From positions 16,726 to 80,725 of the forward strand of contig JAQBRA010000005.1 of the NCBI GenBank assembly GCA_028286685.1: a DNA stretch of 64,000 nt. Reading direction: 5' to 3'. The notes beneath the pieces are model-generated. The model was not told the origin of the DNA, did no database searches, and was given only the letters and a program-made list of their open reading frames with translations. Shown here piece after piece: positions 5,696-18,425 of this stretch. The position numbers and the translations under genes are program-made. This DNA comes from Candidatus Adlerbacteria bacterium (GTDB taxonomy: Bacteria; Patescibacteriota; Minisyncoccia; Phycocordibacterales; SBAW01). Positions within the stretch are counted from its first letter, which is position 1. Each line of letters starts with the position of its first letter.

Positions 5696-6463
5696 TTAGA
5701 GATTAAAAACAGATGAAGCGTTTATGACCGTCTGAGCTATTACTTTTTCCACTTCCAACCCCTTTAGGACGGCAATTTTCTCTGCTACTCCCGAAACATA
5801 TACAGGTTCATTGCGCTTGCCGCGGTTAGGTACCGGGGCCGCGTAGGGCGAATCGGTTTCGATAAGCATCCGATCGAGCGGGACAACCCGCATAGAGTCG
5901 TCGTACATGTCGGTATAGGTTACCGGACCTGGAAATGAGAGGTAGCAGCCCAAATCGAGATACATCTGTGCCAGCTCGCCCGTGCCGGTAAAGAAATGGA
6001 TAATGACTGGAACTGTTGGTTTTTTATTTTCCAGAATCGCAAGCATGTCCTCGTGCGCATTGCGGCAATGGATGATCAAGGGCTTTTGGACTTTTTCCGC
6101 CAGCTCCACGTGCTTTTCAAACCTCATCTTTTGTGCGGACTTTTCCTCATCGGTGCCTCCGGAGCGGAAGTAGTCTAAGCCGCACTCCCCTATTGCGACT
6201 ACCCTAGGCTCGCGGGCCAGCGCCTCATATGCCCCCATATCAAATTCCTCGGCCGGATTGTCATTGGGATGCAAGCCGACCGCGGCCCACAAAAAGCTGT
6301 GCTGTTTTGTAAGCTCGAGCGCCGCGCGGCTTGAAGCCAGGTCAACGCCAATAACGACTGCACCCATCTGTGCCTCCTGCATGCGCGCCAAAACTTCTTG
6401 CCGGTCAGTATCGAACTGCGGCATGTACAAGTGGCAATGGGCGTCGAAGAGTTTGAGATCCAT
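5696..6463 (-). CDS. tatD: TatD-family metal-dependent DNase/hydrolase
   Basis: 255 aa, MDLKLFDAHCHL.. and downstream HxH / ETDSPY motifs. Confidence 0.85.
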   Translation of the reverse strand: MDLKLFDAHCHLYMPQFDTDRQEVLARMQEAQMGAVVIGVDLASSRAALELTKQHSFLWAAVGLHPNDNPAEEFDMGAYEALAREPRVVAIGECGLDYFRSGGTDEEKSAQKMRFEKHVELAEKVQKPLIIHCRNAHEDMLAILENKKPTVPVIIHFFTGTGELAQMYLDLGCYLSFPGPVTYTDMYDDSMRVVPLDRMLIETDSPYAAPVPNRGKRNEPVYVSGVAEKIAVLKGLEVEKVIAQTVINASSVFNL

Positions 6464-7896
6464 TAGTCGTGGCGTGCGAAAAGATTTTCCGGCTTCTGGT
6501 TGGCTGCCACGGCATCCTTAATTTTCTTGCTGGTCTCGGGCATGATCGGATTAAGCATGCAGCCTATCACGTAGAGCTCCTGGGTAAGGTCAAAGATTAT
6601 TTTCTTGCCTGCCTCAAGATCGGTCTTTACCAATTTAAAGGGTGCCTGTTCGGTGATTTTCTGGTCCAGCGCCTGGATGCGGCTCCAGATAAATTCCGCC
6701 GCCTTGTTTATCTCAAACTTCTCCATAGCCTGAATGTACTCCGCGGGAAACTCCGCCGCCTCGGGCCGGGTCCCCTGCTCTAGGTGCGTCGCAGCGAGCT
6801 GCATGATGCGCGCCGAAAGATTACCCAAGCCGTTTGCCAAGTCGGCGTTGTACGCATCCTTGAATGCCTCGCGGGTAATGTCCCCGTCCTCAAACGGTGA
6901 GATGTGCCGCGCCAAGAAGCAGCGCACGGCGTCGGTGCCGTACTCGGCCAAGAGCTCCTCAGGGTCAATGACATTGCCCAAGGTCTTGCTCATCTTCTTG
7001 CCGCCCGAGGTTATAAAGCCGTGGACCAATAAAGTTTTGGGGAGCGGCAGGCCGGCCGACAGGAGCATGCCCGGCCAGATGGCTGCATGGAAGCGCAGGA
7101 TATCTTTTCCAATAACATGCATGCCGGGCCAGAATTCTTCATAGAGTTCGCCGCCCTGCCCGTATCCGAGCGCGGTTATGTAGTTAGACAGCGCGTCGCA
7201 CCAGACGTACATAACCTGGCTGTCGTCGCCCGGCACGGGGATGCCCAGGCCCTGCGGCCAGTCGGCCTTGCGCGGGCGCGAGAAGCTGACGTCCTCGAGC
7301 CCCTGCGCTATGAAAGACAGTATTTCTTTTTTGCGCGTAGCCGGAACTATCAGAAGCTCGTCGCTTTCAATCTTTTGCCTGATAGCGTCGGAGTATTTGG
7401 AAAGCCGGAAGAAATAATTTTCCTCCTTGATAAACTCAGGAGCGGTGCCATGGTCGGGGCACTTGCCGTCGACCAGATCCTTCTCGGTTATAAAAGCTTC
7501 GTGGCCGACGCAGTACAGGCCCTCGTACTCCTTCTTATATATGTCGCCCGCCTCTACCAGCTTCTGCCACAGCGCCTGCGCTCCGGGCCAGTGGGCCTTC
7601 TGGTCGGTCGTGCGAATGAACTGGTCGTAGGAAATACTGAGCTCGCTAAAGAGCGAGGAAAACCGGGCCACGATCCCGTCTAAAAACTCCAGCGGCTCCT
7701 TGCCGTCCTTGCGGGCGGCATCGACCATCTTCTGCGTATTCTCGTCCGAGCCGGTAAGGAAATAGGTCTTCTCCCCCATCAGGCGGTGGTAGCGCACCAG
7801 AATATCGCTTACGGTTGTCGTATACGCATGCCCCAAATGCAGCTTTGCATTGGGATAAAAAATAGGCGTCGTTAAGTAAAACTTCTTGTCTGCCAT
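6463..7896 (-). CDS. metG: Methionyl-tRNA synthetase (short form, no C-terminal tRNA-binding domain)
   Basis: 477 aa; class I HLGH (NAKLHLGHAYTT) and KMSKS (KMSKTLGNV) motifs. Confidence 0.9.
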   Translation of the reverse strand: MADKKFYLTTPIFYPNAKLHLGHAYTTTVSDILVRYHRLMGEKTYFLTGSDENTQKMVDAARKDGKEPLEFLDGIVARFSSLFSELSISYDQFIRTTDQKAHWPGAQALWQKLVEAGDIYKKEYEGLYCVGHEAFITEKDLVDGKCPDHGTAPEFIKEENYFFRLSKYSDAIRQKIESDELLIVPATRKKEILSFIAQGLEDVSFSRPRKADWPQGLGIPVPGDDSQVMYVWCDALSNYITALGYGQGGELYEEFWPGMHVIGKDILRFHAAIWPGMLLSAGLPLPKTLLVHGFITSGGKKMSKTLGNVIDPEELLAEYGTDAVRCFLARHISPFEDGDITREAFKDAYNADLANGLGNLSARIMQLAATHLEQGTRPEAAEFPAEYIQAMEKFEINKAAEFIWSRIQALDQKITEQAPFKLVKTDLEAGKKIIFDLTQELYVIGCMLNPIMPETSKKIKDAVAANQKPENLFARHD

Positions 7897-7908
7897 GGTT
7901 ATGTAACC

Positions 7909-8979
7909 CTACTTCGGCTGCCCCTCCGGGGTCAAGCCTTGCCGGGAAAGCTCGCGGGTCTTGCGGCGGTCAATGTCAGCCACCAGCTCCTGGATAGCGC
8001 CCGCGATCGGGACCGAGAGGAGTATACCCAAGAAGCCAGCCAGCTTCGCGCCCACTATTAATGAAAGGATGACCATAAGCGGCGGCACGCCCACCACTTT
8101 CTTAACGACCACGGGGTAAATAAGATGCGCCTCAAACTGCTGCACCACGACGTACAAGCCGGTAACGAGCAGCGCGCCAGTTACTCCGCCGTCCGCAAAT
8201 GCGATAGCGACCGCCGGTATGGCCGCCAGTATCTGGCCGAACACCGGAATAAGCTCAAAGAGCGCCGCGATTACGGCCAAAAGGAGCGCGTTGGGCACGC
8301 CCAGGATAGTGAGCCCGAGGTACAGAAGGACGCCCACGATAGCGCCTAGAATGAGCTGCCCCTGCATCCACTTGCCTATCTTGTCCTGCGAGCGCTTCCA
8401 TAAGTTAAGCACGTAGGCCTGGTGCGCAGTCGGGGTTACCACGCGCAGGAAATCGTCGACACCCGTCTCCTGCACCGAAAAGTAAAACGAGAACACCGCA
8501 ATGAGAATGAAAGACGTTACGCCGCCAAAAAAGCTCGAGACCGTACTGACTATCCCGCCAGTCGCCCCGGAGATGCTTTGTGAAATGCTCTGCAAGAAAT
8601 CGGTCGAAGTAAAAGAGGCACTAAAGTTGGGCAGGAGGCCGTGCGTAGCGTCTGAGAGGCTGAGCGCCGAGAGAGTGGCCGGCAGGCGCGAGAAGAAGTT
8701 GATGGCATCCTCCAGAAGCGGCGGCAGGAATAAAAAGAGGACGCTGAAGAATACCGCCGCCACCGACGCGTATATAAGTATGACGCTGAACACGCGGTTG
8801 ATCCGGTAACGGCGCAGGGCCACAATCCCCGGCTCCATAGCTGAAGCGATGACGACCGCCGTCAAAACAATAAGCACCACATCGCGCAAGAACCACAACA
8901 GGCCCGCCAGCGCGGCGAACAAAAACACCATGGCGATGGTCCCGGCGGTGATCGTGACGCTGGCAGCGGAGCGTTCCAT
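7909..8979 (-). CDS. AI-2E family transporter (PerM/YhhT-like)
   Basis: 356-aa polytopic membrane protein with the characteristic C-terminal half ..LIPVFGQILAAIPAV..VVQQFEAHLIYPVVV... Confidence 0.7.
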   Translation of the reverse strand: MERSAASVTITAGTIAMVFLFAALAGLLWFLRDVVLIVLTAVVIASAMEPGIVALRRYRINRVFSVILIYASVAAVFFSVLFLFLPPLLEDAINFFSRLPATLSALSLSDATHGLLPNFSASFTSTDFLQSISQSISGATGGIVSTVSSFFGGVTSFILIAVFSFYFSVQETGVDDFLRVVTPTAHQAYVLNLWKRSQDKIGKWMQGQLILGAIVGVLLYLGLTILGVPNALLLAVIAALFELIPVFGQILAAIPAVAIAFADGGVTGALLVTGLYVVVQQFEAHLIYPVVVKKVVGVPPLMVILSLIVGAKLAGFLGILLSVPIAGAIQELVADIDRRKTRELSRQGLTPEGQPK

Positions 8980-9023
8980 GGCCCTACTGTAGCATATTGC
9001 CCCGCCTGTAACTGAATGGTACA

Positions 9024-9374
9024 GTGCGGGCGGACATAAACAGGAAGAAGCTCATGACTCGTTTCGTTGATTGCGACCCTAACCTGAGAGAGATGGAAGA
9101 GAAGCTTGTGGAGGCGCGCGCCGCAGGACACACGCGCATGTTCGCCTTGGGGTATGAGCCTGATTTGCCCATGCAGTGGCACAGCCGCAAAGACGAGCAG
9201 AAAATGAAGGAATACCTCGACTCACGCGAAAAATCCGAGAGCACTTTGTTCAATTGCGCCGTCGCTGTCGTGGTAGTCAATCCGCAAGATAGCGACGAGA
9301 CCATTAAATCAATCATCGCTGCCAAACAGCCACGAAAAAACGAAGGCCCGGGCTATTTCTGTGAGGCATGGTGA
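9024..9374 (+). CDS. Hypothetical protein
   Basis: 116-aa ORF followed by a hairpin terminator; no recognisable motifs. Confidence 0.3.
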   Translation: MRADINRKKLMTRFVDCDPNLREMEEKLVEARAAGHTRMFALGYEPDLPMQWHSRKDEQKMKEYLDSREKSESTLFNCAVAVVVVNPQDSDETIKSIIAAKQPRKNEGPGYFCEAW

Positions 9375-9380
9375 TACGAC

Positions 9381-9416
9381 AAAAAGCGGCGGTCGAAAGA
9401 CCGCCCTTTTTCTTTT
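9381..9416 (+). terminator. Rho-independent terminator
   Basis: aaaaagcggcggtcgaaagaccgccctttttctttt. Confidence 0.55.
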
Positions 9417-9446
9417 ACTCAACTACGTAGCTAATTACGTAATTAG

Positions 9447-10844
9447 CTACTGAATTTTAGATTTGAGAAACGCGGCCAGCTCGGAAACCGGCATGCGGGA
9501 CTGCTCGCCCGTGTCGCGGTCGCGGACCGTTACCGTGTCCTTCTGCTCCGGATTCTCGCCCAGGGTGTCAAAGTCTATCGTAATGCAGTACGGCGTGCCT
9601 ATCTCGTCCTGGCGGCGGTAGCGCTTGCCAATGTTGCCGTTGTCGTCCCACATGATCTGCGGAATCTCTTTCTTAAGATTAGTGTAAATCTCGCGCGCCT
9701 TCTCTACCAGCTCGGGCTTATTTTTAAGCAAAGGAAATACAGCAGCCTTGATGGGTGCCAGGTGCGGAGCAAGACGCAAGACTACGCGAGTCTCCCCGTC
9801 CATTTCGTCTTCCTGGTAGGCATCGCACAGTACCGCCAAAAATACGCGACCCATACCCATCGAGGTTTCAAGTATCCATGGGATAAACTTCTCCCCTTTC
9901 TCCTGGTCGTTATACCGAAGGTCAGAGCCCGAGAACTTTTGATGCTGGGAGAGGTCGTAATCCGTGCGGTCATGTATGCCTTCTACCTCGTCAAAGCCGG
10001 ACGGGAACTCATATTCGATATCCCACGCATCTTTTGCATAAAAGACCAGGTTCTCATGCTGCTTGAAGCGCAGCTTCTTCTCGTTGATGCCGAGCGAGAG
10101 ATACCAATTCCAACGATCCTGCTTTATGGCTTCGTATGCCTCTTTATTTTCGTTCGGCCGGATAAAGAGCTGAGTATCGGCCTGCTCGAATTCGCGCGTG
10201 CGGAAAAGGAAGTTGCGAGGGCTAATCTCGTTGCGGAACGCCTTCCCTATCTGAGCGACGCCGAACGGCATCTTGGGCTGCATAGTATCGACTATATTCT
10301 TATAGTCCAGGTAAATTCCCTGACATGCTTCGCCTGGCAGATACACAGGCTCACCGCCCTCAGACGTAAAATCGCCGAGATTGCTTTTAACCAGAAGATT
10401 GAATGCCATTGCCGGAGTAAAATCCTTTTTACCGCAGACGGGGCACTTAATCTTGTCGCGGTTCTGGTCAAAAAGTTCGTTAATCTGCTCCTCAGACATC
10501 TTCTCGTCTGCAGCAACCCCAATGTTGGCAAGCTCTTTATCAACACGGATGCGGTGCTGGCAATTGCGGCATTCGGCCAAAGGATCGGCAAATCCGCCTA
10601 CATGGCCGGATGCTTCCCATACCTTAGGATGCTTGAACATGCCGGAGTCTAAACCGTAGTAGTTCTCCTTGTCATAAACATTTGCCTTCCACCAAGACTT
10701 CTTAATATTATTTAAGAGCTCAACGCCGCGCGGGCCAAAGTCGTAAACACCGGCCAAGCCGCCATAAATTTCAGAGCCCTGATATACGAAGCCGCGCCGC
10801 TTGGCGAGCGACACGATCTTCTCCATTACGTCTTGGGCTGCCAT
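9447..10844 (-). CDS. glyQS: Glycyl-tRNA synthetase (alpha2 dimeric type)
   Basis: 465 aa, MAAQDVMEKIVSLAKRRGFVYQGSEIYGGLAGVYDFGP..FRNEISPRNFLFRTREFEQ; class II motifs. Confidence 0.9.
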   Translation of the reverse strand: MAAQDVMEKIVSLAKRRGFVYQGSEIYGGLAGVYDFGPRGVELLNNIKKSWWKANVYDKENYYGLDSGMFKHPKVWEASGHVGGFADPLAECRNCQHRIRVDKELANIGVAADEKMSEEQINELFDQNRDKIKCPVCGKKDFTPAMAFNLLVKSNLGDFTSEGGEPVYLPGEACQGIYLDYKNIVDTMQPKMPFGVAQIGKAFRNEISPRNFLFRTREFEQADTQLFIRPNENKEAYEAIKQDRWNWYLSLGINEKKLRFKQHENLVFYAKDAWDIEYEFPSGFDEVEGIHDRTDYDLSQHQKFSGSDLRYNDQEKGEKFIPWILETSMGMGRVFLAVLCDAYQEDEMDGETRVVLRLAPHLAPIKAAVFPLLKNKPELVEKAREIYTNLKKEIPQIMWDDNGNIGKRYRRQDEIGTPYCITIDFDTLGENPEQKDTVTVRDRDTGEQSRMPVSELAAFLKSKIQ

Positions 10845-10877
10845 ACGGGCAAATATACCTTATTTTGCGGCCCCAAA

Positions 10878-12836
10878 CTACTTGGGGCTCACTACCCCGT
10901 CCTTGCCATCGGCGGTTTGGGTCGTCGGGCCCTGGGTCTGCGCCTGCACCTGGATCTGGGCAAAGCGGTCGGTGCCGGAGAGCGCTGCCGAGCCGGTCAA
11001 CGCCGGAGTCTGCCCCACTTGGCTTATCGACGGATTAAGCTCTACTTGGAAGGACGCTTCCTTGGCCGCAAGGGTGTAGCCGGTGCCAGCCTTAAGCTCG
11101 CCCAAGTCCCACCGCACCGTGCGGCTCGCAGCGTCGTAGACAACGCCTGCCTGCCCTGTTTTGTAAGTCACGTATGAAGGGAGCACTGCGGAAACGGTAG
11201 CGCCCGCTATGGCGTTGGAGGAATTTTTCGCCGTCCAGGCGACAGTGTAAGTAGTTGGAGACTCGGCGCGCGGCGGTATTGGACCCGTGTTGCTGTAGAC
11301 GCCCTGGCTAAAGTAAGACCGGGCTTCCAAAGAAAGCAGCGAGCCCAGCACAACCTCGGTCGTGTCGGCCGCCGACACAGTCTCTGATGACTGGTCCGAT
11401 CCGCGGGTGCCTTTGACGCCGAGCGTTAGGGTTACCTTGGGGTTGGTGTATATCGTGCCTCCGCTGCCGGGCGGCAAGGTAGCAAAGGAGAAATTGAGCG
11501 TGCCGGAATCGCCGGGTGCTACCTGGGCCAACGAAGGGTCCTGCGCGCTGGTCCAGGTAATGGTGTTGTCGGACGATTGGTAAAAGCCATTGGGGCTCTG
11601 TACTGATCCCGAATCGAGCACGGGGCCCGCAAGCTTGAGCGTTACCTCGATATTGGAAACCGGGTCGGTCAGGTTGTTCTTCCATGCGACGGAGCCGGAA
11701 ATATTCTGGCCCGGGTTGACCGAGATCGTGCTGCCCGTCTTGCCGTCGACCGTGAGCTCGCCGGATATAAACGGGCGGCTGACCGTAATACTGGTGGGCA
11801 CGGTCAGGAACGGCACCTTGATACGGGCAGCGGTTTGGTCCGCTTCTGAGCCAGCCAAGAAGCGGAATACGCGCTCGTCCCCGTCTTGGCCGTCGATGAC
11901 GCCCTTAACGCGCACGACGGCGGAGGCACCCGGCCGCAAGGAGCCGAGCCGCCACATAGTGGAACCCGAGTCTGCCTTGGGCGTAGCGCTCTGCACCGTA
12001 AAGCCGAACGGGTATTGCGCCTCAAGCGCAACATCGTCTACCGTTTCTGATGAATTGCTCTTGAGCGTTACCTCAAGCTCGAAGGGCTGGCCGGCGGTTA
12101 TGGTCTGGGGCGCCGCGACCGACACCGACACGGGCGAGGAGCCGAGCATGAAGGATACGTTGCCCTCGCGCACGAAGACGGCGTTAGAGCCATCTATCGA
12201 GTACTCGAGTGCCACCTTTACGTCCTGCGAGGAGCCTTCCTGGCCGTAAAAGACGGCGGACGCGGTGCGCTTGATGCTCTGCCCCGGCGCTATGGTGCCC
12301 AAGGACTGCCGCTCGGTCTGGAGCGGTTTTGTAAGATCTTTGGGGTCGCGGGTGCCCTGGGGATAGGTCAGTACCAAGTCGGCCAACGTAAGGGCTGCCG
12401 AATTGCGGTTGGTAATAATGACTTGGAGCTCTGCTTGGGAGCCCCCGTCGACTAGCGACGGCGCGATTATTTCCAGGTCGATATTGCCGCCGGAGACGAA
12501 ATTGCCGCCGCCAAAAAAGTAATAAGCGGCAGCGCCAGCAGCGATAAGGAAAAATACTAGGGACCCAAAAAAGAATTTAGTCGCAAAGGAGAATCCTTTC
12601 TTCTGCGCCCTGGGCGCGTCCATGCTGCCCCCAGTAAAACCCACACCCTCATCGGGCCTTGCCGGAGGCGCAGGCGGCGCCTCCCAGGCCACGGCCGCAT
12701 GCGCATCACTCTCGCTTAAGGGCGAGCGCACATCGGTTATAGGGCCCTGATGCTTGCGGGAGTAGAGCCGGTCCTTCAGCCCGTCTACGCCGGACTTGTC
12801 TTGGGACATCCCGTAATTATACCCTGATGCGGGCAC
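10878..12836 (-). CDS. Large membrane-anchored surface protein (cytoplasmic N-terminus, single TM, beta-rich extracellular repeats), hypothetical
   Basis: 652 aa; TM segment FFFGSLVFFLIAAGAAAYYFF after an ~80-aa N-terminal region, then a Ser/Thr/Gly/Val-rich beta-strand-like sequence. Inserted between recO and glyQS. Confidence 0.5.
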   Translation of the reverse strand: MPASGYNYGMSQDKSGVDGLKDRLYSRKHQGPITDVRSPLSESDAHAAVAWEAPPAPPARPDEGVGFTGGSMDAPRAQKKGFSFATKFFFGSLVFFLIAAGAAAYYFFGGGNFVSGGNIDLEIIAPSLVDGGSQAELQVIITNRNSAALTLADLVLTYPQGTRDPKDLTKPLQTERQSLGTIAPGQSIKRTASAVFYGQEGSSQDVKVALEYSIDGSNAVFVREGNVSFMLGSSPVSVSVAAPQTITAGQPFELEVTLKSNSSETVDDVALEAQYPFGFTVQSATPKADSGSTMWRLGSLRPGASAVVRVKGVIDGQDGDERVFRFLAGSEADQTAARIKVPFLTVPTSITVSRPFISGELTVDGKTGSTISVNPGQNISGSVAWKNNLTDPVSNIEVTLKLAGPVLDSGSVQSPNGFYQSSDNTITWTSAQDPSLAQVAPGDSGTLNFSFATLPPGSGGTIYTNPKVTLTLGVKGTRGSDQSSETVSAADTTEVVLGSLLSLEARSYFSQGVYSNTGPIPPRAESPTTYTVAWTAKNSSNAIAGATVSAVLPSYVTYKTGQAGVVYDAASRTVRWDLGELKAGTGYTLAAKEASFQVELNPSISQVGQTPALTGSAALSGTDRFAQIQVQAQTQGPTTQTADGKDGVVSPK

Positions 12837-12842
12837 GGCGCA

Positions 12843-13421
12843 TTAAAGCCCGGTTGCAGAAAGTGATTCGTTAATAGTGCGCACCAGCAGCGCGCGGTCG
12901 CGCAGCGCCTGGGCGGACAGCTCGACCGAGTACTCCCCTTCTATAAATTGCGAAAGCGCCTGCATATGCGGCAGGTAGCCCAAGTGCGCAATGATGCGCA
13001 AGACGACGACCGACTCTATAGCGTCGGCTGCAGCCTCTTCCGGGGCACGGGCAAGCGCGGCAAAGCCTTCCATTACCGTGCGATACACCGCAGGCACCGG
13101 CTCCTCGCCGTGTATGAGCCGCAGCAATAGCTTGGAAATTTTACCGGCGCGCTGGCGCAAGCGCGGCGTAGCCGAAACAAATTCGCGCGAAGCGGACTCT
13201 ACTCCGGTCAATTTCCACTCGTATTTGCCGCGCACCATGGAGTAGCGCGCATGGGTCAGACTCTCAAGCCCGTAGCGCAGCTTTGATTTTTCAAACCGGG
13301 CCGAGCGGGCCGATACGCGCACGAGTCCCAGCTCCTCCGTCAGCAGCGAGACCAGCGTATTAGCTTCCCCTACCCCGCGCTTCCCGAGTACCAAACCTTC
13401 GGTTACGTGTATCTTATGCAT
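12843..13421 (-). CDS. recO: DNA repair protein RecO (short form)
   Basis: 192 aa; N-terminal OB-fold pattern HKIHVTEGLVLGKRGVGEANTLVSLLTEELGLVRVSARSARF; conserved recO-glyQS neighbourhood. Confidence 0.65.
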   Translation of the reverse strand: MHKIHVTEGLVLGKRGVGEANTLVSLLTEELGLVRVSARSARFEKSKLRYGLESLTHARYSMVRGKYEWKLTGVESASREFVSATPRLRQRAGKISKLLLRLIHGEEPVPAVYRTVMEGFAALARAPEEAAADAIESVVVLRIIAHLGYLPHMQALSQFIEGEYSVELSAQALRDRALLVRTINESLSATGL

Positions 13422-16400
13422 CGGTTCGGGTAATGGTAAGCGCGGAGAGTCCCGTCTCTTCCATCAGCTGTTTTTTATTGTTGTTTGCCGCAGCCTCCTC
13501 CGCTTCTGAAACTGAAAGCTCGTAGCTGGGGCGGTCGGATATGACCAGGTTCTGCGACTTGCGCCACTCCTGTATGCGGCGCACCATATCGCGTACCAGG
13601 CCCTCCTCGACCAATTCCGGCGTAAGGGCAAACTCAAGCGATATAAGAGCGTCCCCCAGCTCCGAATTGACGCGGACTTCCTTGACGTTTACCTCCTCCA
13701 TAAGCACGGCTTGCAGCTCATCGGGCAGATCTTCAGTAATATCAATCGCGCTTAAAGGCTGGCGCAGCTTTACGCCCTCTGCCTCGCGAGCCTGCAGCGC
13801 GCGGGAGGCAAATTTGCGCACCAACTCCATATCCTTAACAAGGAGTGTGTCTGCCGCCTGCGTCTCGGGCCACTCGGACAAATGCACGCTCTGCGCGCTT
13901 TCCTCTTCCCGCACGCGGCGATACAGGTCGTCGGCAAAGAACGGCATGACGGGCGCCATAACCTTGGCTGTCGTTATAAGTACGTGCCGCAAGGTAGCGA
14001 GCGCTTCCTGTTTCTCTATCCCTTCTTCCTTAAAGCGGTCGCGCGAGCGGCGCAGGTACCACGTGGAAAGGTCGTCGATAAAAGCTCCGAGTGGGCGCGT
14101 CGCATCATCAAGCTGGTACGTCTCGAACCCTTCCGTCGATTCCTGTATCAGCTGCGAGAGGCGCGATAGTATCCAGCGGTCCAGCACGTGCGCGCTATCA
14201 GCCGAAGGCGCGGCAGCGCCGGCATACAGCTCGTAAAAGCTGCGCACGTTATCAAGCCGCATCAGGAGCTTCTTCTGCACCTCCTCTACCCCGCGTTCAT
14301 TAAAGCGCAGATCCTCGCCGCGGATGACTGGGGAGGAAAGCATGTAGTAGCGCAATGAGTCGGCGCCGTACTTCTCGACGACTTCCATGGGGTCCGGATA
14401 GTTCCTGAGCTTCTTGCTCATCTTTTGCCCGTCGGAGGCAAGCACCATACCGTTAACGATGACATTCTGATAGGGAGCCTTATTAAAGAGCGCCGTGCCC
14501 AAAACGATAAGCGAGTAGAACCACCCGCGAGTCTGGTCGAGCCCCTCGGCGATAAACTGGGCAGGATAGCCCTTCGTGCCGAAGCCCAAGAGGCCCTTAG
14601 GGTTGAATGTGTCTTTTTTAAACGGGTAGTGGTTGGAAGCAAACGGCATCGAGCCCGACTCGAACCAGCAGTCAAACACGTCCGGGATGCGCTTCCACTC
14701 GCCGGCCATGCTGTTGCCCATCGGGACCTCGTCTATATATGGGCGATGCAAGTCGAGCTCATAGTCCTCGTTGTGCGGAAACGGTACGAACGACAATTCG
14801 CGCACTTCGCCTGTGCGGAACATGGCATCAGACATAAACTCACCTCGTGGCGCGCGGGCAGCCACTTGCTGGAGAGTCCAGATAGGATCTCCATGCGAGA
14901 CAAACAATATATTCTTGCCTGCGTAGCGCCGCTCTACCTCAAATATAAATTCTCCTACACGTGCACGGACGGTTTCGTCGGATGAGCCCGCTTCTCGCAA
15001 ACGCTCATCGGTCATGAGAGCCGAGTCGGGCAAACCAAGTTCTTTAAGCACTATCTTTGCGGTCTCGTGCGTGCGCAGAAACGGCGAGGCAATTATCATA
15101 TCAATCTTCTCCTTACCAAGCTCGGCCGCGGCATGCATGGCCTGATTTTTCCCCTTATCAGTAAGGCGATTTTCCGGATCTCCGCTCAAATCCTCCATAT
15201 TACGCACATTGCTTTGAGCTTCGCCGTGGCGCATGACAAAGTAGCGGTTGCCTGACCGGCGCACCATGCCCAAGAGATCGCTTATCGAACCGGCCACCTT
15301 AACCTCTTTAGTTTTCGTATTACGCCATACCGGCAGCGGCGCGCCCCAGTAGCGCGAACGCGATATCGCCCAGTCGGGCGCGCTTTCAATGCCGTTCTTG
15401 AACCGGCCCTTCCCTATATGCTCGGGCACCCAGCTTACCTTTTCGTTTTCGCTTGCGAGCTTGCCCTTAACTTTACTGACCGCGACAAACCATGAGGTGG
15501 CGGCCCAGTTGAGGAGCGGCGTGTCGCAGCGCCAGCAATGCGGATAGGAATGCTTGACCGTCTCCTGCTTAAACAGGAGTCCGTGCTCGCCCAGAAGCGC
15601 CGCGACTTTCTCATCGGTTTCGCGCGGATTGCCCTTGGGCTTTACATAGAGGCCAGCAAAGTCCGTAACCATGGCATTAAATTTGCCCTCATCGGTTACG
15701 TGGTGGATGAGCGGGATTTTTTCCTTCTGCGCCAGCTCTAGGTCCTCAGCGCCGAAGGCGGGAGCGATGTGCACGATACCGGTGCCGTTGTCGAGCGTAA
15801 CGTAGGCGGCGGCGTACACCTTCCACGCATGGGTCTTGTGCTTATGGAGCTCCTCGGCAAAATAATCAAACGGCGGCAGGTATTTCTTGCCCACCAGATC
15901 CTTTCCCTTCATCTCCCCCGCCACTTCCACATCGCCCAATACTGCCTGCGCGCGCTCCTTGGCGACTACCAAAAATTCATCTCCGACTTTTGCCTTAACG
16001 TACGTAGCATCCGCATTAACCGCAGCTGCGGCATTGCCCGGCAAGGTCCACGGCGTCGTGGTCCAGACCAAAAGCGAAGTGCCCGGCTCGTCGATGAGCG
16101 GCAGCTTTACGTATACGGAAATATCGTCGATATCCTTGTAACCCTGCGCCACTTCGAAGTTGGAAAGCGTCGTACCGCAGTGCGGGCAGTAGTGGAGCGA
16201 TTTGAAGCCCTCGTAAATGAGCCCGCGGTCAAAGAGGTTCTTAAATGACCACCACACCGATTCGGTATAGCTGGTGTCCATGGTTTTGTAGTCATGGTCC
16301 ATGTCGGCCCAGCGGCCAAGCCTGGGGATGATGCGCTTCCAGTCGGCAACATCCTTCATGATGCTCACTCGGGCGGCCTTGTTGAACTTCTCTATGCCGT

Positions 16401-16764
16401 AGGCCTCGATGTCGCGCTTGTTCTTGAGGCCCAGCTCGCGCTCGACCAAATTTTCCACAGGCAAGCCGTGGCAGTCCCAGCCCCAGCGGCGCGGCACGCG
16501 ATAGCCCCGCATGGTGCGGTAGCGCGGGATGGCGTCCTTAATAGTTGAGGCTAGAATGTGCCCGTAGTGCGGCAAGCCGTTGGCAAATGGCGGCCCATCA
16601 TAAAAGGTAAAGTCGCCTTTAGGTGCTTGCTTCTCGAGCGATTTTTGAAATATCCCCTCGCGGTTCCAAAAGGCCAGAACCTCTTCCTCGCGAGCAGCGA
16701 GCAGGCTCTTGGGCTTTTCGGCCTTGTGGTGCAGCTCTTCGCCTCCCTGCTTGGGGTCGTCCAT
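13414..16764 (-). CDS. ileS: Isoleucyl-tRNA synthetase (type 2 / eukaryote-like) with an inserted histidine-phosphatase domain
   Basis: 1116 aa; HIGH = PHYGH, KMSKS = KMSKK, editing domain, DCWFESGSMPF. A ~165-aa RHG..SHG insertion lies between PLPVW and HRPYIDE. Confidence 0.9.
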   Translation of the reverse strand: MDDPKQGGEELHHKAEKPKSLLAAREEEVLAFWNREGIFQKSLEKQAPKGDFTFYDGPPFANGLPHYGHILASTIKDAIPRYRTMRGYRVPRRWGWDCHGLPVENLVERELGLKNKRDIEAYGIEKFNKAARVSIMKDVADWKRIIPRLGRWADMDHDYKTMDTSYTESVWWSFKNLFDRGLIYEGFKSLHYCPHCGTTLSNFEVAQGYKDIDDISVYVKLPLIDEPGTSLLVWTTTPWTLPGNAAAAVNADATYVKAKVGDEFLVVAKERAQAVLGDVEVAGEMKGKDLVGKKYLPPFDYFAEELHKHKTHAWKVYAAAYVTLDNGTGIVHIAPAFGAEDLELAQKEKIPLIHHVTDEGKFNAMVTDFAGLYVKPKGNPRETDEKVAALLGEHGLLFKQETVKHSYPHCWRCDTPLLNWAATSWFVAVSKVKGKLASENEKVSWVPEHIGKGRFKNGIESAPDWAISRSRYWGAPLPVWRNTKTKEVKVAGSISDLLGMVRRSGNRYFVMRHGEAQSNVRNMEDLSGDPENRLTDKGKNQAMHAAAELGKEKIDMIIASPFLRTHETAKIVLKELGLPDSALMTDERLREAGSSDETVRARVGEFIFEVERRYAGKNILFVSHGDPIWTLQQVAARAPRGEFMSDAMFRTGEVRELSFVPFPHNEDYELDLHRPYIDEVPMGNSMAGEWKRIPDVFDCWFESGSMPFASNHYPFKKDTFNPKGLLGFGTKGYPAQFIAEGLDQTRGWFYSLIVLGTALFNKAPYQNVIVNGMVLASDGQKMSKKLRNYPDPMEVVEKYGADSLRYYMLSSPVIRGEDLRFNERGVEEVQKKLLMRLDNVRSFYELYAGAAAPSADSAHVLDRWILSRLSQLIQESTEGFETYQLDDATRPLGAFIDDLSTWYLRRSRDRFKEEGIEKQEALATLRHVLITTAKVMAPVMPFFADDLYRRVREEESAQSVHLSEWPETQAADTLLVKDMELVRKFASRALQAREAEGVKLRQPLSAIDITEDLPDELQAVLMEEVNVKEVRVNSELGDALISLEFALTPELVEEGLVRDMVRRIQEWRKSQNLVISDRPSYELSVSEAEEAAANNNKKQLMEETGLSALTITRTDA
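14770..15252 (-). other. Histidine phosphatase (PGAM/SixA-like, branch 1) domain nested inside ileS
   Basis: Residues ~503-668 of IleRS: RYFVMRHGEAQSN .. IIASPFLRTHETA .. ILFVSHGDPIW. RHG nucleophile, RxxxT and a second His are all present; it replaces the Cys-rich zinc knuckle found at this position in other IleRS. Confidence 0.7.
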
Positions 16765-16793
16765 GCCTTTAATATAGCCGTTTTAAGGCGAAA

Positions 16794-18425
16794 TTACATC
16801 TCCTGCGGCGCAGGAATGCCCAAGACATTTAGACCCTGAGTCATCACGTTTTCAAAAGCTTCGGTCAAAAGGACGCCGTAATGTGGATGCGGGCCGCCGA
16901 TCACCTTCTCCTGCGCGTACCAGCTATTAAAGGCCGAAGCGAGTTCAGTCAGATAAGTAGTTACGTAGTGCGGCTCCATCTCGCGCGCCGCGCGCGCTAC
17001 GGCGTCAGGGTAATGCAGTATGATGCGCTCCAGAGCGCCCATAGCCTCGGGAGCATCGCTCGTGCCGGCATCAACGCCCGCCTCCTTAGCTCCGCGCAAA
17101 AGCGACAAGGCGCGCACGCGCGCGTACTGCAAGTACGGCCCCGAATCGCCCTCCAAGGACAGCGACTTCTCCGGATCAAAAATGATATCGCGCCCGCTCC
17201 CCTGCTTTAAGACGGCGTACTTGATAGCGCCCACCGCAACCGCCTCGGCAGTCTTTTGTGCATCGGCTACATCGCGGCCCTGCATTTTCTCTTTAGACTC
17301 TTCTATCAGGTCAGACACCAGAGACTCGCCAGTAATGACATTGCCCTTGCGCGAGGACATCTTGCCGGTCGTGAGCTTGAGAAAGCCGTGGAAGCGCGCC
17401 AGCATCCGGCCTTCCAAGTCCGGAAATACGAGCTCTGCCGCCTTGCGCACCACCTTGAAGTACTCGCTTATCTCGTTGGCGGTTACCGTCAGGGAGATAT
17501 CGAAGCTGCCTTTTTCTTTCTTGGCTTCGGCAAGCCCCAGCTCTTTTGCCTCATAGGTAGGTAGGCCTTTGCTGTTTATAAACACGCGGGTATGCAGGCC
17601 GTACTGCTCGCCCTTGAATACCACCGCACCCTCGCTCATCTGAAATATCTCTGGATGCTTCTTTACAATCTCAAGCCCGACGGGACCAACCTGGCTTTCA
17701 AAAAAGTAGTAGCTAAACTTGGTGCCCAAGAGCGCGTAGAGCTTTTCAAAATGCTCGAGCGACTGCGCGCGACCTTCGTCATACAGCGCTTGTACGGCGG
17801 CATCGCTCTTTTCATAGATCGTTTTGTTGAGCGTATCCATCTCCTCCTTATGCGCCTCGTACTGGTCCGAGCCGTACACGTACGCCTCGCCCCAGGTCAT
17901 GGAAGGATTTTGCTGCTTGCCCCAAATGGCCTTGGCGACGTGCACGCCCACATCGCCCTGGTAGTTCGCGCGGGAAACGTCGGCACCCGCAGCCTCGAAA
18001 AGCCGCGCAATGCTCTCGCCTATCGTATTACTCATCAGGTGCCCGATATGGAACTCCTTGAACGGATTAGGATCGGTGTACTCGACCATCACCTTCTTGC
18101 CCTTATACAAATCGTTGGCGCCCCAGCCATCCTGCGTAGCGCTCGATACTTCCTGCCGCACCGCGACAGCAGAGAGGTAGAAGTTAACAAAGCCCGCGAC
18201 CGGCTCTATTTTTTCTATGCCCTCTATCTTGCCAATAGCCTCTGCCAAAGACTCAGCAACCTCCTTAGGGATCTTTTTTAAAAGCTTGGCAGCGGCCAGG
18301 GCCGCATTGGTGGCATAGTCGCCATGGGCCATTTCGCGCGGCCGCTCAACCACGAAAGAAGCCTCCCCCGCCCCGAGGGTAACAAGAGCCTCTTTTACTG
18401 CCTGCTCTATAGCTGTTCGCACCAT
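16794..18425 (-). CDS. argS: Arginyl-tRNA synthetase
   Basis: 543 aa; N-terminal Arg-tRNA-synthetase add-on domain, HIGH (FHIGHLMS), MSSRKGNV. Confidence 0.9.
   Translation of the reverse strand: MVRTAIEQAVKEALVTLGAGEASFVVERPREMAHGDYATNAALAAAKLLKKIPKEVAESLAEAIGKIEGIEKIEPVAGFVNFYLSAVAVRQEVSSATQDGWGANDLYKGKKVMVEYTDPNPFKEFHIGHLMSNTIGESIARLFEAAGADVSRANYQGDVGVHVAKAIWGKQQNPSMTWGEAYVYGSDQYEAHKEEMDTLNKTIYEKSDAAVQALYDEGRAQSLEHFEKLYALLGTKFSYYFFESQVGPVGLEIVKKHPEIFQMSEGAVVFKGEQYGLHTRVFINSKGLPTYEAKELGLAEAKKEKGSFDISLTVTANEISEYFKVVRKAAELVFPDLEGRMLARFHGFLKLTTGKMSSRKGNVITGESLVSDLIEESKEKMQGRDVADAQKTAEAVAVGAIKYAVLKQGSGRDIIFDPEKSLSLEGDSGPYLQYARVRALSLLRGAKEAGVDAGTSDAPEAMGALERIILHYPDAVARAAREMEPHYVTTYLTELASAFNSWYAQEKVIGGPHPHYGVLLTEAFENVMTQGLNVLGIPAPQEM

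What the first reader, a model, noticed from the sequence alone, without database searches (positions are those of the whole stretch)
14770..15252. Isoleucyl-tRNA synthetase carries a complete histidine-phosphatase (PGAM/SixA-like) domain inserted in place of its zinc knuckle
- **Observation:** the 1116-aa IleRS has the normal HYGH, editing-domain and KMSKK elements, but ~165 residues are inserted between PLPVWRNTKTKEVKVAGSISDLLG and [38 protein letters not shown].
- **Fold:** the insert has the catalytic signature of branch-1 histidine phosphatases: RYFVMRHGEAQSN (RHG nucleophile), IIASPFLRTHETA (substrate-binding Arg/His) and ILFVSHGDPIW (second His).
- **Context:** in Thermus-type IleRS this position holds a Cys4 zinc motif (..LACACGG..). 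Here the cysteines are gone (PMGNSMAGE) and a second catalytic fold is nested instead.
- **Significance:** I know of no described aaRS with an embedded histidine phosphatase. It could act on a phospho-metabolite, for example an (p)ppApp/Ap4A-type nucleotide, or be a regulatory moonlighting module.
Basis: partly seen in the sequence, partly recalled or inferred. Interest (0 to 1): 0.85.

Follow-up and report, generated by a model that had tools for sequence, protein, structure and literature searches.

The report
Isoleucyl-tRNA synthetase with nested histidine phosphatase
This candidate-phyla (Patescibacteria) bacterium's essential isoleucyl-tRNA synthetase really does carry a complete, apparently active histidine-phosphatase domain inside its catalytic body; the arrangement is widespread and old in these bacteria and was noted once in 2013, but nobody knows what it does.

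Summary
Observation confirmed. ORF 13414-16764 (-) is a type-2 IleRS (TIGR00392, 878 bits) with intact HYGH, KMSKK and editing motifs. Residues 500-669 (window 14758-15267) form a nested Pfam His_Phos_1 domain (E=7.9e-23). Modelled alone it has pLDDT 93.6, and Foldseek matches GpgP, CobC, PhoE and PspA at probability 1.0.

It is not a chimera. All 120 closest homolog clusters carry it, as do at least 120 GTDB species genomes, and R512/H513/R564/E591/H624 are 96-100% conserved.

It belongs to a wider pattern. In Patescibacteria, PGAM domains sit in at least five loops of IleRS and also in ValRS, at up to 3-4 copies per protein. Each site has its own old paralog lineage, and all keep the catalytic residues. 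GNAT, HAD phosphatase, P-loop kinase or serine-hydrolase domains are sometimes co-nested.

The insert lies in the loop between the two former half-knuckles, not in place of the knuckle, and cysteine loss also occurs in insert-free relatives. The architecture is not undescribed: Kantor et al. 2013 noted it in SR1, and JGI annotates it.

Function is unknown. My best guess is a cis-tethered phosphomonoesterase acting on a small phospho-ligand. tRNA 3'-end or self-dephosphorylation remain open.

The parts
13414..16764 (-). ileS ORF, 1116 aa, type-2 (MupA/MupB-like, eukaryote-like) isoleucyl-tRNA synthetase; 100% identical to an NCBI MAG protein from Candidatus Adlerbacteria
16558..16569 (-). HYGH (HIGH) class I signature, aa 66-69
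   Evidence: invariant H66/G68/H69
15505..16134 (-). CP1 editing domain (about aa 211-420) with WTTTPWT and GTGIVH...D341 editing-site motifs, flanked by the retained CP1-base zinc ligands C193/C196 and C410/C413
15268..15339 (-). Pre-insert hairpin PLPVWRNTKTKEVKVAGSISDLLG (aa 476-499). The first half-knuckle position (Thermus WVCQACG) has no cysteines here
14758..15267 (-). Nested branch-1 histidine phosphatase (PGAM/His_Phos_1) domain, aa 500-669, insertion 'site A'
15223..15231 (-). R512-H513-G514: phosphate-binding Arg and nucleophilic His (100%, 100%, 97% conserved)
15073..15075 (-). R564, second phosphate-binding Arg (100% conserved)
14992..14994 (-). E591 in DERLRE, predicted general acid (96% E, the rest D)
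14962..14991 (-). Short 10-residue loop (aa 592-601, AGSSDETVRA) replacing the ~40-aa substrate 'cap' segment that 73/120 homologs retain
14893..14895 (-). H624 in SHG, second catalytic His (99% conserved)
14740..14778 (-). Conserved C-terminal junction P663-H-N-x-x-Y-E-L-D-L-H-R-P675, spanning the end of the insert and the return into IleRS; used as the genome-scan motif
14410..14424 (-). KMSKK (KMSKS) class I signature, aa 781-785
   Evidence: K781-M-S-K784 invariant
13747..14181 (-). Anticodon-binding domain (Pfam Anticodon_1, aa 862-1006)
13447..13707 (-). C-terminal DUF5915 domain typical of type-2 IleRS (aa 1020-1106)

Best explanation
The gene encodes a working type-2 isoleucyl-tRNA synthetase. 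An ancient, vertically inherited and catalytically competent branch-1 histidine phosphatase is nested in a surface loop of the small hairpin subdomain between the editing domain and the second half of the Rossmann fold.

Shown:
- All IleRS synthetic and editing motifs are intact.
- The insert folds on its own as a PGAM domain.
- Its catalytic residues (R512, nucleophile H513, N519, R564, acid E591, H624) are under strong purifying selection.
- Its two junctions are highly conserved, which suggests a fixed geometry and not a floppy tether.
- The same domain family has been fixed at five or more loops of IleRS and in ValRS across Patescibacteria, and is occasionally replaced or joined by another phosphatase family (HAD).

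Inferred: the domain works as a phosphomonoesterase through a phospho-His513 intermediate and acts in cis, next to the adenylate-forming site. The most probable substrate is a small phosphorylated metabolite or nucleotide-like ligand (a CobC/PhoE/GpgP-like reaction), for example a phospho-compound that would otherwise inhibit or be mis-used by Ile/Val-tRNA synthetases. The substrate itself is unknown.
For: - IleRS identity and integrity.
- PGAM identity: Pfam E=7.9e-23; insert-only AF2 model pLDDT 93.6, pTM 0.90; Foldseek probability 1.0 to GpgP, RosC, CobC, PhoE and PspA.
- Catalytic residues are 96-100% conserved in 120 homologs and in all 414 PGAM domains at every insertion site.
- The insert evolves under constraint: 58% identity, against 62% for the anticodon-binding domain and 44% for the C-terminal domain.
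- Not a chimera and widespread.
- Recurrent fixation at sites A, A', B, C and D, with domains clustering by site and not by host protein.
- Also present in ValRS.
- A HAD phosphatase occupies an insertion site in P0339, which has no PGAM. This argues that phosphatase activity is the selected property.
- Small-molecule leaning: the nearest sequence, structure and curated-family relatives are all small-molecule phosphatases; most homologs keep the substrate cap; the domains are not basic, with median pI ~6.3.
Against: - No substrate is identified, and no curated equivalog cut-off is reached.
- The window's own domain has lost the cap that normally shapes a small-molecule pocket. That would suit a macromolecular substrate at least as well.
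Coupling in cis is therefore inferred only from recurrence and from the conserved junctions.
- Unrelated domains (DUF559 endonuclease-like, IS200-type Y1 transposase) are also nested in relatives. These enzymes therefore tolerate insertions, and some accretion may be neutral.
- Nothing explains why Ile/ValRS in particular are the hosts.
Confidence: 0.4

Rival explanations
1. tRNA-end healing. The nested phosphatase removes a 3'- (or 2'-) phosphate from the CCA end of tRNA bound to the synthetase, so that toxin- or nuclease-damaged tRNA can be charged. Candidate substrates are ends left after de-pyrophosphorylation of toxSAS-modified CCA, or after opening of a 2',3'-cyclic phosphate. Co-nested kinase, Nudix and HAD domains in relatives would supply the other healing steps.
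For: - The host is a tRNA-binding enzyme, and all insertion sites lie on its catalytic body.
- Relatives co-nest PNK-like P-loop kinases (AAA_33/Zeta_toxin), HAD phosphatases and, per Kantor 2013, a Nudix domain. Together these are the classical RNA end-healing toolkit.
- The cap-less, open domain in the window's subclade would admit a macromolecule.
- Phosphorylated CCA ends that block aminoacylation do exist in nature (bioRxiv 10.1101/2021.04.30.441581; PMC11559606).
- The best NCBIfam match of the domain is the PGAM half of a bifunctional RNase H/acid phosphatase.
Against: - The domains are mildly acidic, like stand-alone relatives, with no RNA-binding signature.
- No histidine-phosphatase RNA 3'-phosphatase is known to me.
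- No ligase domain is co-nested.
- The idea does not explain restriction to IleRS and ValRS.
- Most homologs keep a small-molecule-type cap.
- No Nudix was found among the 500+ proteins retrieved here.
Confidence: 0.2
2. Built-in post-translational control or immunity. The phosphatase dephosphorylates the synthetase itself, for example a Ser/Thr near the KMSKS/ATP site phosphorylated by HipA-like kinase toxins or by the co-nested kinases. That would give a cis-acting on/off switch or protection for Ile/ValRS.
For: - PGAM-family protein phosphatases exist (SixA, PGAM5, Sts). PGAM5 and a SixA-like protein are among the fold matches, and the cap-less domain is SixA-sized.
- Sites A, B and C all lie in the Rossmann second half around KMSKS.
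- Relatives co-nest kinases and GNAT acetyltransferases, which are 'writer' enzymes.
- Kinase toxins that inactivate class I aaRS (HipA on GltX, HipT on TrpS) are established knowledge.
Against: - TIGR00249 SixA scores 39 bits against a cut-off of 74.5.
- The nearest relatives are small-molecule enzymes.
- No phosphosite or cognate kinase is known in Paceibacteria, and no kinase is nested in the window protein.
Confidence: 0.12
3. Mechanistically uncoupled passenger. Ile/ValRS of these small-genome bacteria are permissive scaffolds. A housekeeping phosphatase (and other enzymes) was fused into tolerant loops for co-expression, or the domain now serves only a structural role. It would have no role in aminoacylation.
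For: - Many unrelated domain families are nested at the same loops, including endonuclease-like DUF559 and an IS200-type transposase domain that look like mobile-element debris.
- Insert-free relatives function without it.
- The cap has been lost in the window's subclade.
Against: - The distribution is heavily skewed to one family. PGAM is present in 107 of the 120 best relatives of a Gracilibacteria-type IleRS (P0194) and in 69 of 120 ValRS relatives.
- It was fixed separately at five or more sites, and each site's lineage is old.
- Catalytic residues are invariant everywhere, which argues against a purely structural role.
- The junctions are conserved.
Confidence: 0.23
4. Artefact: an assembly chimera, a frameshifted fusion of two genes, or an intein-like element that is spliced out.
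For: GC content is slightly lower over the insert (0.51-0.54, against 0.56-0.59 in the flanks).
Against: - The reading frame is continuous.
- The same architecture occurs in 120 independent homolog clusters from NCBI, JGI, ENA and Logan, on contigs up to 960 kb, and in at least 120 GTDB species genomes including a closed chromosome.
- No Hint/intein domain is detected.
- The junction residues are conserved.
Confidence: 0.01

Closest known systems
SR1 (RAAC1_SR1_1) / ACD80 isoleucyl-tRNA synthetase noted by Kantor et al. 2013, mBio (PMC3812714)
   Same: A candidate-phyla IleRS interrupted by phosphoglycerate-mutase-family domains. It is the only literature mention I found of this architecture.
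   Different: The SR1 protein has two PGAM domains plus a Nudix domain, giving four IleRS segments. The window's protein has one cap-less PGAM at site A and comes from Paceibacteria (Adlerbacteria). The paper gives one descriptive sentence with no analysis or function.
NCBIfam NF040702 'ileS_w_GNAT' (isoleucine--tRNA ligase, N-acetyltransferase domain-containing)
   Same: A curated recognition that some IleRS carry an extra nested catalytic domain. In Gracilibacteria and Peregrinibacteria the GNAT co-occurs with PGAM in the same protein.
   Different: The window protein scores 319 bits against a cut-off of 1999 and has no GNAT. No curated model exists for the PGAM-bearing form.
Stand-alone branch-1 histidine phosphatases: CobC (alpha-ribazole-5'-P phosphatase), PhoE/YhfR, GpgP Rv2419c, PspA, RosC
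   Same: Same fold and catalytic R-H...R...E...H set. They are the best sequence, structure and profile matches.
   Different: The window domain shares only 20-25% identity with them and falls below every equivalog cut-off. It lacks the ~40-aa cap and is nested inside another enzyme.
Bifunctional RNase H / acid phosphatase (Rv2228c / PRK07238 type)
   Same: A CobC-like PGAM domain physically joined to a nucleic-acid enzyme. It is the top NCBIfam match for the PGAM segment.
   Different: That is an end-to-end fusion, not a nested insertion. The score is 65 bits against a cut-off of 326, and the partner enzyme is different.
SixA phosphohistidine phosphatase
   Same: A compact, ~160-aa, cap-less histidine phosphatase. 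JGI labels the nested domain 'SixA'.
   Different: TIGR00249 scores 39.4 bits against a cut-off of 74.5. The window domain retains the DERLRE Glu typical of PhoE/CobC-type enzymes.
Canonical nested modules of class Ia synthetases (CP1 editing domain; LeuRS leucine-specific domain; Thermus IleRS Cys4 knuckle)
   Same: Domains inserted into loops of the Rossmann fold without disrupting it. The insert lies in the loop between the two halves of the former Cys4 knuckle.
   Different: Those modules act directly in aminoacylation or editing and are not members of an unrelated enzyme superfamily.

Membership tests
Isoleucyl-tRNA synthetase (TIGR00392 ileS), type 2 | Whole-protein profile score above the curated cut-off | tested here: met
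   878.3 bits against a cut-off of 621.4; best solved matches are 1ILE and type-2/eukaryotic IleRS
Isoleucyl-tRNA synthetase (TIGR00392 ileS), type 2 | Class I HIGH and KMSKS signatures | tested here: met
   HYGH aa 66-69 and KMSKK aa 781-785; invariant in 76 homologs
Isoleucyl-tRNA synthetase (TIGR00392 ileS), type 2 | CP1 editing domain with Thr-rich and GTG(I/V)VH...D motifs | tested here: met
   WTTTPWT (T235-T237, W239) and G327-T-G-I-V-H332, D341 are invariant; aligns to solved editing domains 1WK8 and 1UE0
Isoleucyl-tRNA synthetase (TIGR00392 ileS), type 2 | Isoleucylation of tRNA(Ile); sole IleRS of the genome | not testable with these tools
   Needs biochemistry and the whole genome. 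The window holds no second ileS
Histidine phosphatase superfamily, branch 1 (Pfam PF00300) | Profile match above the gathering threshold | tested here: met
   81.6 bits against 21.7, E=7.9e-23
Histidine phosphatase superfamily, branch 1 (Pfam PF00300) | RHG motif with nucleophilic His, two phosphate-binding Arg, second His, acidic proton donor | tested here: met
   R512, H513, R564, H624 and E591 are present and 96-100% conserved
Histidine phosphatase superfamily, branch 1 (Pfam PF00300) | Alpha/beta PGAM fold | tested here: met
   Insert-only model pLDDT 93.6; Foldseek probability 1.0, TM 0.62-0.72 to solved family members
Histidine phosphatase superfamily, branch 1 (Pfam PF00300) | Phosphatase or mutase activity via a phospho-histidine intermediate | not testable with these tools
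   Requires enzyme assays
Cofactor-dependent phosphoglycerate mutase (dPGM) | Equivalog-level profile score and a substrate-binding cap | tested here: not met
   dPGM_arch scores 62 bits against a cut-off of 225; the cap segment is deleted
SixA phosphohistidine phosphatase (TIGR00249) | Equivalog-level profile score | tested here: not met
   39.4 bits against a cut-off of 74.5
Alpha-ribazole phosphatase CobC (TIGR03162) | Equivalog-level profile score | tested here: not met
   37.7 bits against 162.9 for the window. The best nested relative (site A') reaches 126 against 162.9
Thermus-type Cys4 zinc knuckle between CP1 and the second Rossmann half | CxxC after P-I/V-W plus CxC before the R-R/I-P segment | tested here: not met
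   The window has WRNTKTKE and PMGNSMAGE. Its only cysteines are 98, 193, 196, 410, 413 and 699
Intein / self-splicing insertion | Hint splicing domain flanking the insert | tested here: not met
   No Hint or intein family is among the Pfam hits of the full protein
CPR IleRS interrupted by PGAM domains (Kantor et al. 2013 description) | IleRS from a candidate-phyla bacterium whose catalytic domain is split by one or more PGAM-family domains | tested here: met
   The Nudix domain of the SR1 example is absent here

The most novel reading that the evidence does not exclude
The nested PGAM domains, together with the HAD, kinase, Nudix, GNAT and serine-hydrolase domains nested in relatives, form a previously unrecognised 'de-modification' layer built into Ile/Val-tRNA synthetases of Patescibacteria. 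They would strip phosphate-type modifications from the tRNA 3' end or from the synthetase's own active-site loop. The enzyme would then repair or un-poison its substrate or itself before charging, giving a new quality-control and anti-toxin step in aminoacylation.
Probability: 0.2. Interest if true: 0.9.

Novelty: new member of a known kind. Interest (0 to 1): 0.62.

Why it matters
Aminoacyl-tRNA synthetases are among the best-studied enzymes, and unrelated catalytic domains nested inside their Rossmann fold are very unusual. Here an apparently active phosphatase has been kept inside an essential synthetase across a large part of the Patescibacteria. The same family has been fixed repeatedly at different loops of IleRS and ValRS.

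That pattern implies a selected but unknown link between phosphate-ester hydrolysis and Ile/Val charging in organisms with minimal genomes and symbiotic lifestyles. Identifying the substrate could reveal one of several things:
- a new proofreading or repair step;
- a built-in resistance to a natural inhibitor or toxin;
- a regulatory switch.

The question is directly testable with recombinant protein. The phenomenon is recorded in databases and in one sentence from 2013, but it has not been analysed.

Tried and rejected
- **Assembly chimera or gene fusion artefact:** rejected.
- **Intein:** no Hint domain.
- **Glycolytic dPGM, SixA or CobC membership:** all below curated cut-offs.
- **'Insert replaces the zinc knuckle':** rejected for this protein, because the insert lies between the half-knuckles and cysteine loss also occurs without the insert.
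- **IleRS-specific function:** rejected, because ValRS carries nested PGAM too.
- **Recent intragenic duplication as the source of multi-PGAM proteins:** rejected, because domains cluster by site and identity between sites within one protein is only 23-39%.
- **RNA-binding electrostatic signature:** not found.
- **Nudix box among the 270 proteins retrieved by then:** none found by regex. None of the Pfam lists contains PF00293, so I could not re-find the SR1 Nudix form.
- **Rosetta-stone test (stand-alone PGAM next to an insert-free ileS):** not seen in two genomes. One had a stand-alone Ser_hydrolase-like gene abutting ileS, and the other had a PGAM-bearing ValRS 4 kb away.
- **Cluster look-up for organism names of the multi-PGAM variants:** returned no names.
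- **AlphaFold-database fold search:** the library was unavailable.
- **Literature:** searches combining IleRS or aaRS with histidine phosphatase, Patescibacteria, domain architecture or GNAT found only the Kantor 2013 sentence.
- **Geometry:** the position of the phosphatase site relative to the synthetic site could not be measured, because model coordinates are not exposed.
Full report
**1. What is in the sequence.**

- Pfam finds tRNA-synt_1 in two stretches, Anticodon_1 and DUF5915. Between the two tRNA-synt_1 stretches it finds His_Phos_1 (PF00300) at E=7.9e-23, 81.6 bits against a gathering score of 21.7.
- NCBIfam identifies the host as ileS (TIGR00392, 878 bits against a cut-off of 621), most similar to the type-2 MupA/MupB-like enzymes.
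- The best solved relatives are T. thermophilus IleRS (1ILE), human, yeast and Candida IleRS and Priestia megaterium IleRS2.
- In the alignment to 1ILE, query residue 497 pairs with 476 and 670 with 488. A loop of about 11 residues is therefore replaced by about 172.

**2. The host is an intact synthetase.**

- HYGH (66-69), KMSKK (781-785), the editing-site motifs WTTTPWT and GTGIVH...D341, and the CP1-base zinc ligands C193/C196/C410/C413 are all present. They are invariant in a 76-sequence alignment.
- The gene sits in a tight housekeeping array on the same strand: metS, an AI-2E transporter, a class II aaRS, a DUF11 protein, recO (overlapping the ileS stop by 8 nt), ileS, argS, DUF2914, glyA, dcd and tmk.
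- No second ileS or valS lies in the 64 kb.

**3. The insert is a real histidine phosphatase domain that looks active.**

- Modelled alone with 75 homologs, it gives pLDDT 93.6 and pTM 0.90. In the full-length model (pLDDT 79.3) the insert is the best-predicted part, at 90-96.
- Foldseek against the PDB returns only branch-1 histidine phosphatases at probability 1.0 and TM 0.62-0.72: GpgP Rv2419c, RosC, CobC, PhoE, PspA and PGAM5. Sequence search gives the same set.
- Across the 120 closest homolog clusters, R512 and H513 are 100% conserved, G514 97%, N519 97%, R564 100%, E591 96% (the rest Asp) and H624 99%.
- The insert is 58% identical on average. That is less than the catalytic core (75-80%), similar to the anticodon-binding domain (62%) and more than the C-terminal domain (44%). 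It is therefore under purifying selection.
- Both junctions are strongly conserved (M-V-R-R-S-G-N-x-Y at the start, F-x-P-x-P-H-N-x-x-Y-E-L-D-L-H-R-P at the end). That suggests a fixed orientation on the host.
- The window's version is a derivative. 73 of 120 homologs have the usual ~40-residue cap segment after the DERLRE glutamate. The window protein and 46 others have only 10-14 residues there.

**4. It is neither a chimera nor rare.**

- The protein is 100% identical to an NCBI MAG protein from Candidatus Adlerbacteria.
- All 120 best homologs (60-81% identity) carry PF00300. They come from NCBI, JGI, ENA and Logan assemblies, on contigs up to 960 kb, and are named Adler-, Nomura- and Kaiserbacteria, Paceibacterota and Minisyncoccia.
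- An exhaustive phmmer search of the insert against 1.84 billion cluster representatives gave 3895 hits at E<=1e-3. Of the best 150, 100 are embedded in IleRS-like proteins.
All 120 encode the IleRS-insert-IleRS arrangement, including a closed Nomurabacteria chromosome, CP060229.1.

**5. The wider pattern.**

I mapped architectures with local HMMs. PGAM domains sit in at least five different loops:

| Site | Position | PGAM domains (of 414) |
|---|---|---|
| A | The window's site | 229 |
| A' | After DLHRPYID, i.e. at the second half-knuckle loop | 33 |
| B | The loop before YPAQFIAEG | 24 |
| C | Between the KMSKS/stem-contact region and the anticodon-binding domain | 68 |
| D | After the editing domain | 1 |

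The remaining 59 domains are stand-alone proteins or fragments (50), or could not be assigned beyond a probable site A (9).

- Proteins carry one to three or four copies. P0283 and P0280 have A'+B+C, and P0126 has four.
- The catalytic residues are essentially invariant in every site class.
- Domains cluster by site and not by host. The nearest neighbour is of the same site for A' 33/33, B 22/24 and C 66/68. Domains at different sites within one protein are only 23-39% identical, which is the background level between classes. These are therefore old, separately maintained lineages and not recent duplications.
- In Gracilibacteria, Peregrinibacteria and Peribacteria the IleRS additionally nests other domains: GNAT acetyltransferases, DUF559/REase-like domains, a serine hydrolase, P-loop kinases (AAA_33, Zeta_toxin-like) and an IS200-type Y1 domain. 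In P0339, which has no PGAM, a HAD phosphatase occupies site B.
- The phenomenon is not IleRS-specific. 69 of the 120 best relatives of a ValRS from GCA_964532505.1 carry PF00300. In that ValRS the domain follows '...IPVWYDQNGNQFLAEEQ', the topological equivalent of site A.
- Contig-length matches indicate genomes with PGAM in both IleRS and ValRS, in IleRS only, in ValRS only, or in neither.
- Insert-free type-2 IleRS (1030-1106 aa) occur in some of these lineages and in Verrucomicrobia.

**6. The zinc-knuckle claim.**

- Thermus has WVCQACG...(loop)...LACACGG. The window has WRNTKTKE...(insert)...PMGNSMAGE, so all four cysteines are gone. The insert lies in the connecting loop (EL-x8-11-DLH in insert-free proteins), not at the knuckle itself.
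- Insert-free relatives either keep Cys4 (P0345, P0346, P0378, P0390, P0392) or have lost it (P0343, P0391, P0393, P0394), as has human IARS1.
- Loss of zinc ligands and gain of the domain are therefore separate events.

**7. Prior knowledge.**

- Kantor et al. [quoted passage not shown]
- JGI product names such as 'isoleucyl-tRNA synthetase/phosphohistidine phosphatase SixA/...GNAT' and the NCBIfam model ileS_w_GNAT show that pipelines see these architectures.
- I found no analysis or functional work in eight full-text searches, including a 2026 review of the phylum.
- The architecture is thus recorded but uncharacterised. As far as I could find, the multi-site, multi-copy pattern shared by IleRS and ValRS has not been described.

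**8. How it most likely works.**

Shown: this is an intact IleRS plus a conserved, independently folding PGAM domain with a full catalytic set, held by conserved junctions and fixed recurrently in Ile/ValRS.

Inferred:
- The domain is an active phosphomonoesterase using H513 as nucleophile and E591 as acid.
- It acts in cis with the synthetase. Arguments for coupling are the strong skew towards this one family, the repeated independent fixation, and a HAD phosphatase occupying an insertion site in P0339, which lacks PGAM.
- For the substrate I lean to a small phospho-metabolite or nucleotide-like ligand. All nearest relatives by sequence, fold and curated profile are such enzymes (CobC, the RNase H-acid phosphatase PGAM half, GpmB/PhoE, PspA, GpgP). 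Most homologs retain the cap, and the domains are not basic (median pI 6.3, window insert 5.8).

This is a weak preference (confidence 0.4 for the whole statement).

Rivals:
- tRNA 3'-end healing. Support comes from the co-nested kinase, HAD and Nudix repertoire, the cap-less open form and the existence of toxSAS-pyrophosphorylated CCA ends.
- Self-dephosphorylation as a switch, or as immunity against kinase toxins.
- An uncoupled passenger in a permissive scaffold, supported by the variety of nested domains, including mobile-element-like ones.

**9. Limits.**

- The AlphaFold-database library was unavailable.
- I could not re-find the Nudix-bearing SR1 form.
- Whole genomes could not be scanned for a second ileS.

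**10. Verdict.**

The protein is a member of a recorded but unstudied class of Patescibacteria class-Ia synthetases with nested histidine phosphatases. Interest is 0.62.

Noticed in passing
L004:17319-21332 (GCA_964532505.1 contig CAZHIF010000005.1): A 1337-aa ValRS has a nested His_Phos_1 (aa 511-663) at the topological equivalent of site A, followed by about 200 residues (aa ~700-895) that match no Pfam family. The IleRS of the same contig (10001-13204) is insert-free and keeps its Cys4 knuckle.
   Followed up: partly
Proteins P0355 and P0361 (relatives; not in the window): DUF559/REase_MTES_1575 (P0355 aa 294-399) and an IS200-type Y1 transposase domain (P0361 aa 346-470) are nested in-frame inside the IleRS editing-domain region. 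They look like mobile-element remnants tolerated inside an essential enzyme. DUF559 is also found in ValRS (P0413, P0490).
   Followed up: no
Protein P0339 (relative; not in the window): This IleRS has a HAD-family phosphatase (aa 567-733, with a weaker second HAD-like match, no significant stretch, around aa 815-923) at site B and no PGAM. It looks like an analogous replacement of one phosphatase superfamily by another.
   Followed up: partly
L001:9332-9841 (GCA_030429505.1, 1.02-Mb contig): Next to an insert-free ileS lies a stand-alone 169-aa gene with weak Ser_hydrolase/PGAP1 hits. This is the family that is nested at site B of IleRS P0329. rpiB overlaps the ileS start by 4 nt.
   Followed up: no
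window 6463-18425 (- strand): Four aminoacyl-tRNA synthetase genes lie within 12 kb on one strand: MetRS 6463-7896 (only 477 aa), a class II aaRS 9447-10844, IleRS and ArgRS 16794-18425. recO (12843-13421, 192 aa, only the RecO_N domain detected) overlaps the ileS stop codon by 8 nt.
   Followed up: partly
window 27445-30042 (-): An 865-aa ORF whose only Pfam hit is the ALK/LTK glycine-rich domain (PF12810, E=4.9e-07). This is an unusual hit for a bacterial protein, possibly a Gly-rich surface protein.
   Followed up: no
window 43470-45449 (-) and 278-1849 (-): Two large ORFs (659 aa and 523 aa) have no Pfam family at E<=1e-5.
   Followed up: no
window 35786-37669 (-): A 627-aa protein with PPDK_N plus the PEP-utilizers mobile domain. 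It is a PEP synthase- or phosphotransferase-like enzyme lacking the usual C-terminal PEP/pyruvate domain.
   Followed up: no
L009 (QYPD01000003.1, labelled Spirochaetia MAG): A contig assigned to a Spirochaetia MAG carries the Paceibacteria-type IleRS-PGAM junction. It is probably a mis-binned Patescibacteria contig. Many loci labelled 'uncultured Candidatus Saccharibacteria' in a large TPA MAG series also carry the Paceibacteria-type junction, so those labels may be generic.
   Followed up: no
window 14900-15200: GC content dips to 0.51-0.54 over the insert, against 0.56-0.59 in the flanking ileS sequence. The dip is mild and consistent with weaker constraint, not recent acquisition, given the domain's age.
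   Followed up: partly
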